A stretch of DNA of 64,000 nucleotides from an uncultured Pseudomonadota bacterium (lineage in GTDB: Bacteria; Pseudomonadota; Alphaproteobacteria; RF32; CAG-239), in contig CAMRWU010000001.1 of the NCBI GenBank assembly GCA_947054505.1, forward strand, positions 30,464 through 94,463. The letters run 5' to 3'. Each line of letters begins with the position of its first letter. The first letter of the stretch is position 1. Below are positions 46,695-49,600 of the stretch, in pieces. The position numbers were made by a program.

Positions 46695-49600
46695 CTATGC
46701 AAATTAATCTTCAACGACACCGAGAATTTCAGCTTCTTTAATCAACAAGCGCTCTTCTCCGTTCAACTTGACCTCAGAACCGGACCATTTGCCGAATAAA
46801 ACCTTGTCACCAACTTTAACATTCATCGGAATCAACTTACCTTCCGAACTCAACAACCCTGGACCGACGGCCTCAACAATGCCTTCGCTCGGTTTTTCTT
46901 TTGCGGTATCGGGAATGATAATGCCGCCGGCAGTTTTGGTATTTTCTTCCAATCTTTTAACAAGAACGCGGTCTTGTAGTGGTCTGATTTTCATTTTCAA
47001 GCTCCATAAAAGTTATAAATATATCTACTGGCTTAGTTAGTGATTTTAAATTGTAAAGTCAAGCGCCGGAGCAAAAAAATATGGAAAAAATAAAAGCCGC
47101 GCTCTCAATAACGCGGCTTCTATTTTACTTTACATCAACAACCACTCTTCTGACCACCACAGCCAAAAAGCTGACAACCAGCAAAAATGACAACAACAGC
47201 AGGCTGAAGAAGAACACCCATGCATGCGGGAACAACAACATAATCGGTCTGGCAATTGCCGAAGCCCAACCATCAAGGGTAAAGACCTGCAACAGAGTAA
47301 ACATAGCACTTCCCAAATCGCCAAAGCTGGCAAACACATCTCCGAACAACATCACCGCCATAATCGCATAGACATAGAAAACAACGGCAAACACCGCCAA
47401 AAATGAAACAAATGCAGGAATCAAATCAATAAACATTTGTACAATATTGTTCATCTTTGAAGAATGATGAATATATTTAAACAGACGGAACAATCTGAAT
47501 GTCCGCAAAACAATCAAACCGCTGGCAACCGGAACCGTTGACACTCCGACTACAACCAAATCAAAAATATTCCATCCTGATGAAAAGAAACCTTTTTTCA
47601 AAGCATACAGCTTCAAAAACATCTCAACGATAAAAATCCCCATAAACAAGCGATCAAGCAAAAACAATCCACGATCAAAATACAGATTCAAAGTCTCGGA
47701 CGTCATCATCCCCAAAACAATCGCATTAGCAAAGATAATCCCCATAATAAACAGGTCAAAACTTTTACCGCTGACCAATTTTGTCAGTTTGCGGATATCC
47801 TCTTTGGGAAATACCTTTTTAATGATTTTCTTTTTTAGATTTTGTTTTGAAACTTTCGCCATTTTACTATCCTCAAAAATACTACTTGTTTTATATTAGC
47901 CTAAAAATACCAGAATGCAACGATTATTCCGGCAATTGCCAAAGCCGGCCCATATGCTCCGCTACGTTGCCGCTTAACCAGCGCCCACACAAAGAACAAT
48001 CCGCAAGATACCACAATCGTCGCCAACATTCCCTCAAGCCCCAGCCAAGCGCCCAAAGCCGCCAACAACTTAATATCCCCGCCTCCGAAAGCATCTTTAT
48101 TATACTTAACAAACAACAAACTTGCCAACACCGGTAAAAAATATCCGATATTTGCCGCCACTACGGCATCTTGTAACACGACAAACCCGACATCAAACAC
48201 GCCGGCAAGCAACCCTAATAACAACAGCGGAATAGTCAAAATATCGGGCAACAGATACATCCGATAATCAATTTCAGCCAACAGCAACAAAATCCAAATA
48301 AACATACAACGAAAAACCGCACCGTTCGCCCCCCAATAGGCAAATGCGGCAAAAAACAAACCACCACTCAACAGCCCCGCCATCAAAGATCGCCAAAAAT
48401 AACGACTGCACAACTGTTTATAGCGAGAAGATTTTTTAGCCTTTTTGCCACGACCTTTTACCGAAAAAACAATCTGCCATACGGCATACGCAAATGTCGC
48501 CGGCATAAACTTGGCAAAACGACGTGCAATATATGGAACAAAAAATCCCAACAAAAATCCGGCGATGGCATAAATCATTATAGTATCCTTTCGCAAAAAT
48601 ATAATATCAAAGCATAAAAAAAAGATTAAAAAAACCGCTGTCCCACGCAACAGAACAGCGATATTTTTCTTCACAAAGCCAGAGCCGATGCTCTAAACCA
48701 TTGCCGGTATGACAACAACATCATACACCATATTAGCGAACAATCAAGAAATATTTCAACTTTTAATCGCAGACTATCTGCTCTTCCTATAGTGCTGTGG
48801 CGGAAGCTTATTGAGTTGTCTGGAAATTGTATCCGGCAAATTATATCCGACTTTTATCTCTCTCATCTGACTATGCAAATCTCGCTCCGTTCTGATAGCA
48901 TTCGGACTCATGCCATACAAAACCCCCAAATTTGCTTCTCGATACGCACTCAACAAATCATTATCATTTTCGGAAAACAGACGAAACTCTGCGGCGCGGC
49001 GCTTTTCTAATTGTGGCAATTTTTTGCCGCCGGCATACACTTTTGTTTTAAAATATCGGTCAATCTTCTCACGCGCACTTGCACTACCCGTCTGAGCAAA
49101 TTCATTAATATTCAAGCTCAAATCTGTCGCCCGTCCACCTTTTTCAAACACACCGGCACCACAATTATACGCCAAATCAATTAACGACACAATCTGCGCA
49201 TCCCCCAGATGCTCAATATCCAAAGTTCTGGACATAACCGGTGCGATTCGCTCCGCAATATGCACTTTCACACATTCAATTAACTCTGCTTCGGATTTAA
49301 GACAATCCCCGATTTTTACCTTTCGGCCATTAGCCAAAACCGTATTTCCGATACCAATCGTCGGCAATCCTCGTGCCGCTCTGTCTTTATAAGCACGACA
49401 ACGCACCCCTTCAAAATGAGCAATAACATAAACCGCATCATCTGTAAGAGACATAACCTTGTCCATCGCATCAAAAGAGGGCGTGGCAACACTGTCATTT
49501 GCAACAGAATCCGTCTTTATCGAATCAGAAAAAGCCGTGCTTAAATCCCAAACATCCTCAGAGGCATTCACTGAATCATTAGGAACCAGCGTTTCGGTAT

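What the first reader, a model, noticed from the sequence alone, without database searches (positions are those of the whole stretch)
47125..47862. BacNaV-type voltage-gated channel with a non-canonical TLDGWAS selectivity filter
The 245-aa protein has all hallmarks of the NaChBac family. These are S1-S3, an S4 with R/K every third position (RTFRLFRLFKY), a pore helix plus filter LQVFTLDGWASAIARPIM and S6. The canonical Na-selective filter is TLESWAS. Here the key Glu is Asp and the following Ser is Gly (LDGWAS). In NaChBac, adding acidic residues around this position (LEDWAS, LDDWAD) converts the channel toward Ca2+ selectivity. A natural LDGWAS filter is unusual and may mean altered selectivity. 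A voltage-gated channel in a probable host-associated alphaproteobacterium is notable in itself.
Basis: partly seen in the sequence, partly recalled or inferred. Interest (0 to 1): 0.55.

Follow-up and report, generated by a model that had tools for sequence, protein, structure and literature searches.

The report
Short gut-bacterial channel with Asp-Gly filter
The gene encodes a stripped-down relative of bacterial voltage-gated sodium channels, typical of uncultured gut Alphaproteobacteria, whose pore filter (Asp-Gly instead of Glu-Ser) probably lets calcium and other cations through, and which is always encoded next to a prepilin-peptidase-like protease.

Summary
Observation confirmed. ORF 47125-47862 (-) encodes a 245-aa, six-helix voltage-gated channel subunit. 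It matches NavMs (E 8e-47) and NavAb, and TLDGWAS aligns exactly on their TLESWSM filter.

It is not a one-off. It represents a clade of over 600 proteins, found in 53 species-level genomes of uncultured gut and rumen Alphaproteobacteria. In 52 aligned members, Asp3 occurs in 50, and Gly4 and Trp5 in all 52. dN/dS is 0.03-0.06.

"All hallmarks of NaChBac" is wrong in three respects:
- The protein ends about 8 residues after S6, so it has no neck or coiled coil.
- The S6 Asn reported as conserved in all Nav, Cav and TRP channels is Ser in 52/52.
- The fourth gating charge, R4, is Lys.

The clade branches within NavAb-like channels, not with CavMr.

Published mutants constrain selectivity:
- Asp at this site makes NsvBa and NaChBac-E191D poorly selective.
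- Gly4 is essential for Ca2+ selectivity in CavMr.
- Gly4 alone leaves NaChBac (LEGWAS) Na+-selective.

My best guess is a weakly selective, Ca2+-permeable voltage-gated cation channel. This is untested.

Unexpectedly, an A24 prepilin-peptidase-like gene lies immediately upstream in every clade locus and in relatives down to 40% identity, across different genomic contexts. The two genes look like one operon. I rate this a new variant of a known kind, of moderate interest.

The parts
47125..47862 (-). Coding sequence of the 245-aa single-domain voltage-gated cation channel subunit. It comprises a Lys-rich N-terminal leader with an S0 helix, S1-S4, the S4-S5 linker, S5, P1 helix, filter, P2 helix and S6, and stops about 8 residues after S6.
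   Evidence: ORF. Pfam Ion_trans 2.4e-30. NavMs 8e-47 and NavAb 1e-41. AF2 model and Foldseek hits to NavAb/NavMs. dN/dS 0.03-0.055.
47464..47514 (-). S4 voltage-sensor helix (residues 117-133, IVLRTFRLFRLFKYIHH). R120, R123 and R126 are followed by K129 at the R4 position.
   Evidence: Alignment with NavMs, NavAb, NaChBac and CavMr. R1-R3 are conserved in 52/52 and K4 in 50/52. The charge-transfer residues F77, E80 and D101 are conserved in 52/52.
47260..47280 (-). Selectivity filter T195-L-D-G-W-A-S201. D197 is the high-field-strength site (Glu in all characterised BacNaVs except NsvBa). G198 is position 4 (Ser in Na+-selective BacNaVs, Gly in CavMr).
   Evidence: Direct reading of the sequence. 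Residue-by-residue alignment on NavMs TLESWSM. Clade counts are D 50/52, G 52/52 and W 52/52.
47170..47172 (-). Codon of Ser231 in S6. This is the position of the Asn (NaChBac N225, NavAb N211) that is otherwise conserved in Nav, Cav and TRP channels.
   Evidence: Ungapped alignment anchored on P-x-AW-x-FF. The position is Ser in 52/52 clade members and Asn in NavMs, NavAb, NaChBac and CavMr. Conservation of the Asn and intolerance to substitution are reported in PMC5599482.
47073..47126 (-). Intrinsic terminator directly after the channel stop codon: a 17-bp stem with GC-rich core followed by a U-run. It separates the channel from the groES-groEL unit downstream.
   Evidence: RNA fold -23.1 kcal/mol, z = -5.3 against shuffles, 0 of 200 shuffles as stable. 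Sequence.
47901..48578 (-). A24-family (prepilin-peptidase-like, GxGD aspartyl protease) membrane protein gene of about 225 aa. It lies 38 bp upstream of the channel on the same strand, with no hairpin between them and a GAGGA-like ribosome-binding site before the channel ATG. It is probably co-transcribed with the channel. The longest ORF starts at a GTG at 48674, but orthologues start at the Met at 48578.
   Evidence: Pfam Peptidase_A24 2.3e-17, 63.8 bits against a cut-off of 26.5. The orthologue alignment shows the conserved start MIYA..., and invariant Asp in AEIDxR and in GGGDxK. The gene is adjacent to the channel in 53/53 clade loci and in L081-L083, L087 and L088.
48634..48662 (-). Terminator-like hairpin with a T-run between the upstream lysozyme-like gene and the A24 gene. 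It is the probable upstream boundary of the two-gene unit.
   Evidence: Consensus scan: 13-pair stem followed by TTTTTTT. This is a pattern match only.

Best explanation
The ORF encodes one subunit of a tetrameric, voltage-gated cation channel of the bacterial NaChBac/NavAb superfamily.

It belongs to a derived clade that is typical of uncultured gut and rumen Alphaproteobacteria. The sensor is intact: R1-R3 plus Lys at R4, with the Phe/Glu/Asp charge-transfer centre. Depolarisation should therefore open the S6 gate.

The pore is lined by a ring of four Asp (instead of Glu), each followed by Gly (instead of Ser). I infer that the channel is not Na+-selective. It most likely passes Ca2+ as well as Na+ and K+, that is, it is weakly selective and Ca2+-permeable.

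The clade has lost the cytoplasmic neck and coiled coil and has replaced the conserved S6 Asn by Ser. Its gating and inactivation therefore probably differ from those of model BacNaVs.

The gene forms a two-gene transcription unit with an upstream A24 prepilin-peptidase-like protease.

Shown: family, fold, filter position, clade-wide conservation, loss of the C-terminal domain, Asn to Ser, and gene pairing. Inferred: tetramer, voltage gating, ion selectivity, and co-transcription.
For: Identity and fold:
- Pfam, PDB and Foldseek results agree.
- The filter position is fixed by the residue-level alignment.

Functional constraint:
- dN/dS is 0.03-0.055.
- Invariant columns coincide with the gating charges, charge-transfer centre, pore helix and D-G-W.

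Clade and habitat:
- 53 species-level genomes at 49-96% identity are all gut or rumen MAGs. The next hits are canonical TLESWSM channels at 31-42% identity.
- The 50%-identity library shows a drop from 250 to about 150 bits.

Selectivity inference:
- NsvBa (TLDSWGS) is non-selective among Na+, K+ and Ca2+, and D186E alone restores Na+ selectivity (PMC4225499).
- NaChBac E191D raises PK/PNa from 0.03 to 0.57 (PMC4001777).
- Gly4 is the key determinant of Ca2+ selectivity in CavMr. CavMr-D7M, with four negative charges per tetramer, keeps PCa/PNa of 144 (PMC7041947).
- A review classes one-domain channels with Gly after the acidic ring as Ca2+-selective (PMC10120453).

C-terminal domain and S6:
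- The protein ends where the NavAb 1-226 truncation ends, and that construct forms a pore described as open.

Operon:
- The gap is 38 bp with no hairpin.
- A strong terminator follows the channel.
- The pairing is conserved in at least 4 genomic contexts.
Against: - No electrophysiology exists for any member, so selectivity is extrapolated from mutants in other backgrounds.
- NaChBac S192G (LEGWAS) behaves like wild type and has low Ca2+ permeability (PMC2229573). The Gly4 effect therefore depends on context, and this clade is NavAb-like, not AnclNav.
- CavMr also needs Val6 for full selectivity, and here position 6 is Ala.
- Every tested substitution of the S6 Asn in NaChBac except Asp gave no current (PMC5599482). 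Conventional gating cannot be taken for granted.
- The tetramer and the filter geometry could not be modelled, because only monomer prediction was available.
- Co-transcription rests on sequence features only.
Confidence: 0.6

Rival explanations
1. It is a genuinely Ca2+-selective voltage-gated channel. That would make it a second, independently evolved lineage of native prokaryotic Cav, using an Asp-Gly filter like the T-x-D-G-W filters reported for CatSper subunits rather than the Glu-Gly filter of CavMr.
For: - Gly4 is invariant, 52/52.
- In CavMr and NavPp, Gly4 decides Ca2+ selectivity, and four negative charges per tetramer suffice, as in CavMr-D7M with PCa/PNa of 144.
- The Spafford classification states that one-domain channels with Gly at HFS+1 are Ca2+-selective whether the ring is Asp or Glu.
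- In NsvBa, Asp at the ring allows divalent permeation while Glu abolishes it.
Against: - NaChBac LEGWAS remains Na+-selective.
- The clade is not in the AnclNav group and lacks CavMr's Val6.
- Asp at the ring in NaChBac and NsvBa gives loss of selectivity rather than Ca2+ selectivity.
Confidence: 0.2
2. It is functionally an ordinary Na+-selective BacNaV. The E-to-D and S-to-G changes are compensated by the rest of the pore, and the clade differs only in gating kinetics because the C-terminal domain is missing.
For: - The closest solved relatives are Na+-selective NavMs and NavAb.
- The NJ tree puts the clade inside the NavAb-like radiation.
- The rest of the pore (FxxxT, W199, R205-P206) is canonical.
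- LEGWAS NaChBac is Na+-selective.
Against: - In both natural (NsvBa) and engineered (NaChBac E191D) cases, Asp at this site degraded Na+ selectivity. D186E alone restored it in NsvBa.
- Asp is held in 50/52 species while close outgroups vary (E, S, D). This suggests selection for a property that Glu does not give.
Confidence: 0.12
3. It does not work as a free-standing voltage-gated channel. One possibility is that it needs the co-encoded A24 membrane protease for maturation or assembly. Another is that it has become a voltage or ion sensor with little conduction, given the loss of the S6 Asn and of the tetramerising coiled coil.
For: - Ser replaces the S6 Asn in 52/52, and only N225D gave current in NaChBac.
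- There is no C-terminal domain.
- The A24 pairing is obligate across contexts.
- A few members have no acidic ring: RINGWMT in L048 and L049, and TLGGWST in the P0121/P0274 cluster.
Against: - The filter, pore helix, gating charges and charge-transfer centre are under strong constraint, as expected for a conducting gated pore.
- CTD-less NavAb constructs still form tetrameric pores.
Confidence: 0.06

Closest known systems
NavMs (Magnetococcus marinus) and NavAb (Aliarcobacter butzleri), the NavAb-like BacNaVs
   Same: They are the best sequence and structure matches (about 40% and 35% identity). They share the 6TM architecture, R1-R3, charge-transfer centre, pore-helix FxxxT...W motif, P2 R-P motif and S6 length. 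The clade branches within this radiation.
   Different: - The filter is TLDGWAS, not TLESWSM.
- There is no neck or coiled coil.
- The S6 Asn is replaced by Ser.
- R4 is Lys.
- The S4-S5 linker lacks its Pro.
- The turret has a one-residue deletion.
- There is a 24-40-residue Lys-rich N-terminal extension.
- An A24 partner gene is present.
NavAb 1-226 (engineered C-terminal truncation, PDB 5VB8/6MVY)
   Same: The protein ends at the equivalent position, a few residues past the S6 bundle crossing.
   Different: Here the truncation is natural and fixed across a clade, and it comes with S6 and linker changes. NavAb 1-226 keeps the Glu-Ser filter and the S6 Asn.
CavMr (Meiothermus ruber), native prokaryotic Cav of the AnclNav group, filter TLEGWVD
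   Same: Gly at filter position 4, which is the determinant of Ca2+ selectivity in CavMr.
   Different: Here position 3 is Asp not Glu, position 6 is Ala not Val, and position 7 is Ser not Asp. There is no long P2-S6 insertion. The phylogenetic group differs: CavMr and NavPp cluster with the Bacillus group at bootstrap 70, away from this clade. CavMr also has a coiled coil.
NsvBa (Bacillus alcalophilus), non-selective voltage-gated channel, filter TLDSWGS
   Same: [quoted passage not shown] In NsvBa this Asp is what abolishes Na+ selectivity and admits Ca2+.
   Different: NsvBa has Ser at position 4 and a GxG motif after the Trp, which contributes to K+ permeation. It belongs to the Bacillus group and has the S6 Asn, four Arg and a coiled coil.
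CatSper pore subunits (eukaryotic sperm Ca2+ channel)
   Same: They are one-domain subunits. According to the review read, their filters have an Asp ring followed by Gly and are Ca2+-selective. The T-x-D-x-W consensus is from my own knowledge.
   Different: They are only distant homologues. They form heterotetramers with many auxiliary subunits and are eukaryotic. I did no sequence comparison here.

Membership tests
BacNaV superfamily (NaChBac/NavAb-type single-domain voltage-gated channels) | A single Ion_trans 6TM domain of about 230-300 aa, with significant sequence and fold similarity to solved BacNaVs | tested here: met
   Pfam PF00520 at 106 bits. NavMs 8e-47 and NavAb 1e-41. Foldseek TM-scores 0.66-0.77.
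BacNaV superfamily (NaChBac/NavAb-type single-domain voltage-gated channels) | S4 with four positive charges at every third position, and a conserved charge-transfer centre (S2 Phe and Glu, S3 Asp) | tested here: met
   R120, R123 and R126 are conserved in 52/52. The fourth charge is Lys in 50/52. F77, E80 and D101 are conserved in 52/52.
BacNaV superfamily (NaChBac/NavAb-type single-domain voltage-gated channels) | [quoted passage not shown] | tested here: not met
   The filter is T-L-D-G-W. Asp occurs in 50/52 and Gly in 52/52.
BacNaV superfamily (NaChBac/NavAb-type single-domain voltage-gated channels) | Cytoplasmic C-terminal domain with a neck and a four-helix coiled coil | tested here: not met
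   Only about 50 residues run from the filter Thr to the C-terminus, against 80-120 in 28 reference channels. The outgroups P0141, P0124 and P0139 still have the heptad tail.
BacNaV superfamily (NaChBac/NavAb-type single-domain voltage-gated channels) | Conserved S6 asparagine (NaChBac N225) | tested here: not met
   Ser in 52/52, Asn in all references. Literature.
BacNaV superfamily (NaChBac/NavAb-type single-domain voltage-gated channels) | Homotetrameric, voltage-gated and Na+-selective conduction | not testable with these tools
   This needs expression and patch clamp. No multimer modelling was available.
AnclNav group (CavMr/NavPp) | Branches with CavMr/NavPp, apart from the NavAb-like and Bacillus groups | tested here: not met
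   In an NJ tree of 167 sequences with 100 bootstraps, CavMr, NavPp and other AnclNavs group with the Bacillus channels (bootstrap 70). The clade sits among NavAb-like sequences, and its own node with P0134 has bootstrap 89. Backbone support is low.
AnclNav group (CavMr/NavPp) | Filter T-L-E-(G/D)-W-(V/T)-D with extra acidic residue(s) | tested here: not met
   Only Gly4 is shared. There is no acidic residue at position 7, and position 3 is Asp.
NsvBa-type non-selective channel | [quoted passage not shown] | tested here: met
   D197 aligns with NsvBa D186.
NsvBa-type non-selective channel | GxG motif after the filter Trp (TLDSWGSG), and membership of the Bacillus group | tested here: not met
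   The sequence here is W-A-S-A. NsvBa pairs with NaChBac at bootstrap 100, far from the clade.
Peptidase A24 (type IV prepilin peptidase family), for the partner gene 47901-48578 | Pfam PF01478 above the gathering score, and two catalytic Asp including the GxGD motif | tested here: met
   63.8 bits against a cut-off of 26.5. The Asp of AEIDxR and of GGGDxK are invariant in about 50 orthologues.
Peptidase A24 (type IV prepilin peptidase family), for the partner gene 47901-48578 | Acts on prepilin-type substrates encoded in the genome, and (for PilD-type enzymes) has an N-terminal Cys-rich methyltransferase domain | tested here: inconclusive
   No NCBIfam model matched. No PilD N-terminal domain was reported by Pfam. 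A regex found no pilin-like ORF in the 64-kb window, but the rest of the genome is unseen. A PilT-like ATPase lies at 40986-41948.

The most novel reading that the evidence does not exclude
The A24 GxGD intramembrane protease is a dedicated partner of this channel rather than, or in addition to, a pilin-processing enzyme.

Two forms of this idea are open:
- The protease removes the Lys/Arg-rich cytoplasmic leader of the channel at the conserved K-L-V-x-G | (F/K)-S-F-D-(L/M)-F-I-M junction. That junction has the topology and rough look of a class III (prepilin-type) signal peptide.
- The protease acts as an auxiliary subunit that replaces the lost coiled coil in assembly.

Either would be the first case of a voltage-gated channel matured by, or complexed with, a prepilin-peptidase-family protein.
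Probability: 0.1. Interest if true: 0.8.

Novelty: new variant of a known kind. Interest (0 to 1): 0.5.

Why it matters
- **Selectivity.** If the Asp-Gly filter gives Ca2+ permeability or selectivity, this would be a second lineage of native prokaryotic Ca2+-conducting voltage-gated channels, evolved independently of CavMr. It would also be a natural test of the idea that Gly after the acidic ring governs Ca2+ selectivity.
- **Gating.** The clade is a natural experiment on two features usually treated as essential. One is the S6 asparagine, reported as conserved in all Nav, Cav and TRP channels. The other is the C-terminal coiled coil.
- **Tools.** At 245 aa it is one of the smallest complete voltage-gated channels. 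That matters for structural work and for the BacNav gene-therapy and optogenetic-tool efforts that favour small genes.
- **Ecology.** It shows that an abundant, uncultured group of gut Alphaproteobacteria universally keeps a voltage-gated cation channel, always in an operon with a prepilin-peptidase-like protease. That link has no published explanation that I could find.

Tried and rejected
1. **NCBIfam scans.** Neither the channel nor the A24 protein matched any model.
2. **Literature string search.** TLDGW, LDGWAS and TLDGWAS found only an unrelated nematode GPCR paper. Filter sequences printed inside figures cannot be searched, so absence is weak evidence.
3. **Biopython neighbour-joining.** It timed out on 167 taxa and was replaced by my own numpy implementation. 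Deep backbone nodes have very low bootstrap, so only local groupings are used.
4. **Membership of the CavMr/AnclNav group.** Considered because of Gly4, and rejected on phylogeny and on the remaining filter residues.
5. **The idea that the filter is a rare oddity.** Rejected. It is fixed across a large clade and recurs in other branches.
6. **The idea that the channel-A24 and channel-groESL adjacency is only inherited synteny.**
   - For groESL this remains possible. An A24-less outgroup, P0139, keeps channel-groES-groEL.
   - For A24 it is unlikely. The gene upstream of A24 belongs to at least 12 families. Fifteen loci have insertions before groES. Three more distant relatives carry the pair next to pth/rplY, rplK/rplA or groES.
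7. **Prepilin-type cleavage of the channel N-terminus.** Gly at the putative -1 position occurs in only 43/52 members. It is Ser or Asn in P0134 and P0280, which still have the A24 partner. Most of the motif (R/K-L-x-x-L-V-x-x-x-x-F) is inherited from the S0/S1 region of ordinary BacNaVs. The idea is kept only as a low-probability reading.
8. **Regex search for pilin-like ORFs in the window.** Nothing convincing was found.
9. **Profile search for A24 genes near 27 canonical BacNaV loci and the P0139 loci.** None was found.
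Full report
**1. The observation**

The ORF is exactly where stated: 47125..47862 on the minus strand, ATG start, 245 aa. Reverse-complementing 47260-47280 gives ACC CTT GAT GGT TGG GCT TCG, which reads TLDGWAS.

- Pfam assigns one Ion_trans domain (E 2.4e-30).
- phmmer against all PDB chains gives NavMs at 8e-47 and NavAb/CavAb at about 1e-41.
- The printed alignment puts TLDGWAS on NavMs TLESWSM with no gap nearby.
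- An AlphaFold2 model built on 51 clade sequences has mean pLDDT 77, above 90 over S5 to S6. It has the expected helices S0-S6, P1 and P2.
- Foldseek returns NavAb, CavAb and NavMs as best hits, with TM-scores 0.66-0.77.

**2. It represents a large clade**

- 638 database proteins match at E<=1e-10. The 120 best share 56-100% identity and are 225-257 aa long.
- 100 of those 120 carry TLDGWAS, and most of the rest carry TLDGWA(A/T/G).
- A scan of one genome per species found 53 loci at 49-96% identity. All are metagenome-assembled genomes of uncultured (Alpha)proteobacteria from human, mouse, ruminant, deer or sheep gut, for example "Proteobacteria bacterium CAG:495" and "uncultured Azospirillaceae".
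- The next hits drop to 31-42% identity. They are ordinary TLESWSM channels of Paracoccus, Erythrobacter, Binatia and others.
- From memory, CAG:495 is placed by GTDB in the gut order RF32. I did not verify this here.
- In the 50%-identity representative library the clade collapses to a few clusters. Scores fall from 250 to about 150 bits, where canonical BacNaVs and eukaryotic four-domain channels begin.
- dN/dS against the two closest orthologues is 0.03 and 0.055.

**3. Anatomy compared with characterised channels**

I took reference sequences (NaChBac, NavAb, NavMs, NavSp, NsvBa, CavMr, NavPp and others) from the source data of Shimomura et al. 2020. I aligned them with 52 species-level clade members.

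Conserved as in BacNaVs:
- S2 Phe77 and Glu80, S3 Asn98 and Asp101, and R120, R123 and R126, all in 52/52.
- The pore-helix FTLLQ motif, Trp199 (52/52) and the P2 R-P motif.

Different, and fixed in the clade:
- Filter Asp197 (50/52) and Gly198 (52/52), where the references have Glu-Ser.
- Lys at the R4 position (50/52).
- An S4-S5 linker without its Pro.
- Met or Leu in place of the S1 Glu of NavAb and NaChBac, as in NavMs.
- A one-residue deletion in the turret.
- Ser231 (52/52) at the S6 position that is Asn in every reference.
- A stop about 8 residues after S6. The neck and coiled coil are absent, because only about 50 residues follow the filter Thr, against 80-120 in the 28 references.

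[quoted passage not shown] They also report that only N225D gave functional NaChBac (PMC5599482).

On the C-terminal domain, it is described as a standard BacNaV module. The NavAb construct truncated after S6 is the one assigned to the open state (PMC9754703; 6MVY and related entries).

So "all hallmarks of the NaChBac family" is not correct. This is a stripped-down, derived form.

**4. Phylogenetic position and stepwise origin**

I built a neighbour-joining tree of 167 sequences over 214 columns with 100 bootstraps.
- The clade groups with P0134 (TLSDWLE) at bootstrap 89.
- Adding P0139 (TLDNWVN), P0124 (TLDGWSN) and P0141 (TFEGWSS) gives a node at bootstrap 81, inside the NavAb-like radiation.
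- CavMr, NavPp and other AnclNavs group with the Bacillus channels at bootstrap 70, elsewhere in the tree.
- The backbone is poorly supported, so I rely only on these local statements.

The outgroup sequences form a graded series:
- P0141 is fully canonical, with four Arg, the linker Pro, the S6 Asn and a heptad tail.
- P0124 has the Asp-Gly filter and the S6 Ser but keeps a coiled coil.
- P0134 keeps a short coiled coil.
- P0280 has a non-helical basic tail.
- The window's clade has no tail at all.

Asp-Gly filters also occur in longer-tailed branches (TLDGWSS, TMDGWSS, TMDGWRN, SLDGWTS). One of these clusters is from a Hyphomonadaceae MAG. The filter is therefore uncharacterised rather than rare.

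**5. What the filter probably does (inference)**

No paper in the searchable library contains the TLDGW string in a channel context. The relevant experiments are these.

- NsvBa, a natural TLDSWGS channel, is non-selective among Na+, K+ and Ca2+. D186E alone restores Na+ selectivity and abolishes divalent conductance (PMC4225499).
- NaChBac E191D raises PK/PNa from 0.03 to 0.57 (PMC4001777).
- In CavMr (TLEGWVD), Gly4 is the key determinant of Ca2+ selectivity, and G4S and G4D lose it. D7M, which has only four charges per tetramer, keeps PCa/PNa of 144. Val6 is supportive (PMC7041947; PMC8677417).
- Spafford's classification holds that one-domain channels with Gly after the acidic ring are Ca2+-selective whether the ring is Asp or Glu (PMC10120453). 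The sentence in that paper appears to swap its two examples, since CavMr has Glu by its own sequence.

Taken together, the Asp argues strongly against Na+ selectivity, and the Gly may push towards Ca2+. I rank the outcomes as follows.

| Outcome | Probability |
|---|---|
| Weakly selective, Ca2+-permeable | about 0.6 |
| Ca2+-selective | about 0.2 |
| Na+-selective | about 0.12 |
| Not a conventional free-standing channel | about 0.06 |

**6. The unexpected part: a conserved partner gene**

The gene 38 bp upstream on the same strand (47901-48578) encodes an A24 prepilin-peptidase-family membrane protein (Pfam 63.8 bits against a cut-off of 26.5). Orthologues show that the real start is the Met at 48578. 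The catalytic Asp of AEIDxR and of GGGDxK are both invariant.

- The A24-channel pair is present in 53/53 clade loci, with gaps of about 4-107 bp.
- The surroundings vary. The gene upstream of A24 belongs to at least 12 different families. Fifteen loci have 1-3 ORFs inserted between the channel and groES. In at least three loci with several kb of sequence beyond the channel (L028, L030, L031), groES is not within reach.
- More distant relatives keep the pair in other contexts. P0280 (48% identity) lies between pth/rplY and an LRR/alaS block. P0274 (50% identity) lies before rplK/rplA. P0134 (40% identity) lies before groES.
- The A24-less outgroup P0139 has cNMP-binding genes upstream instead.
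- A profile built from the A24 orthologues finds no A24 gene within about 6 kb of 27 canonical BacNaV loci.

In the window the pair is bounded by two structures. Upstream there is a terminator-like hairpin at 48634-48662. Directly after the channel stop codon there is a strong terminator (-23.1 kcal/mol, z = -5.3). A promoter-like TTGACT follows before groES. I therefore read A24 plus channel as a two-gene operon.

Why the two genes are linked is open. The channel's N-terminus has a basic leader, then K-L-V-x-G, then F/K-S-F-D and a hydrophobic helix oriented N-in. This loosely resembles a class III signal peptide. However, Gly is present in only 43/52 members and is absent in P0134 and P0280. 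Most of the motif is also shared with ordinary BacNaVs. I give a direct protease-channel relationship about 10%.

**7. Verdict**

What is there differs from the description in several ways:
- It is a lineage-wide, gut-associated, minimal BacNaV derivative.
- It has an Asp-Gly filter, no C-terminal domain and no S6 Asn.
- It has an obligate A24 neighbour.

It is a new variant of a known kind. Interest is moderate (0.5) because the biophysical predictions are directly testable and bear on how Ca2+ and Na+ selectivity and S6 gating are built. Nothing here is yet shown functionally.

Noticed in passing
window 47901-48578 (-), with loci L001-L053, L081-L083, L087, L088: An A24 prepilin-peptidase-like gene lies immediately upstream of the channel, on the same strand, in every clade locus and in relatives down to 40% identity, across at least 4 different genomic contexts. 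It is absent next to canonical BacNaVs and next to the outgroup P0139.
   Followed up: yes
window 47170-47172 (Ser231 codon): The S6 asparagine reported as conserved in all Nav, Cav and TRP channels is Ser in 52/52 clade members and in outgroup P0124. Outgroups P0139 and P0141 keep Asn.
   Followed up: partly
L048 and L049 (filter RINGWMT); protein cluster P0121/P0274, locus L083 (filter TLGGWST): A few clade members have lost the acidic ring altogether (Asn or Gly at position 3) while keeping Gly-Trp, the A24 neighbour and full length. They may have a different or lost conduction function.
   Followed up: no
window 48774-49802 (-): A 342-aa protein with a phage-lysozyme domain and a weak match to a gene-transfer-agent endolysin sits between fabZ and the A24 gene. 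In L003 and L009, fabZ directly abuts A24, so this gene looks like an insertion in the window's lineage. It is shared with L001 and L002.
   Followed up: partly
L085 (P0139 lineage), 1-3829 and 4001-6953: In an A24-less outgroup, the channel (TLDNWVN filter, with a coiled coil) is still followed by groES-groEL. Two large cNMP-binding-domain proteins lie divergently upstream. The channel-groESL adjacency is therefore older than the A24 pairing.
   Followed up: no
window 45027-46676 (-), GroEL: The C-terminal tail reads ...[27 protein letters not shown] Cys-His-Cys precedes the usual Gly-Met repeat.
   Followed up: no
window 40986-41948 (-): A 320-aa PilT/GspE-like secretion ATPase scores below every NCBIfam cut-off. 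It is the only sign in the window of a type IV filament system that the A24 peptidase might serve. A regex found no pilin-like ORF in the window.
   Followed up: partly
window 35459-39782 (-); L083 4933-6883: A PP2C-phosphatase-like gene, and a gene with a weak match to the NCBIfam model for class IV lanthionine synthetase LanL, lie about 8 kb from the channel. A VWA, PP2C and protein-kinase trio lies just downstream of the channel locus in L083. This may be coincidence.
   Followed up: no
whole window: GC skew is negative in every 4-kb block (about -0.05 to -0.28), and most long ORFs are on the minus strand. This is consistent with the minus strand being the leading strand across the whole 64 kb. 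GC content is about 43%.
   Followed up: no
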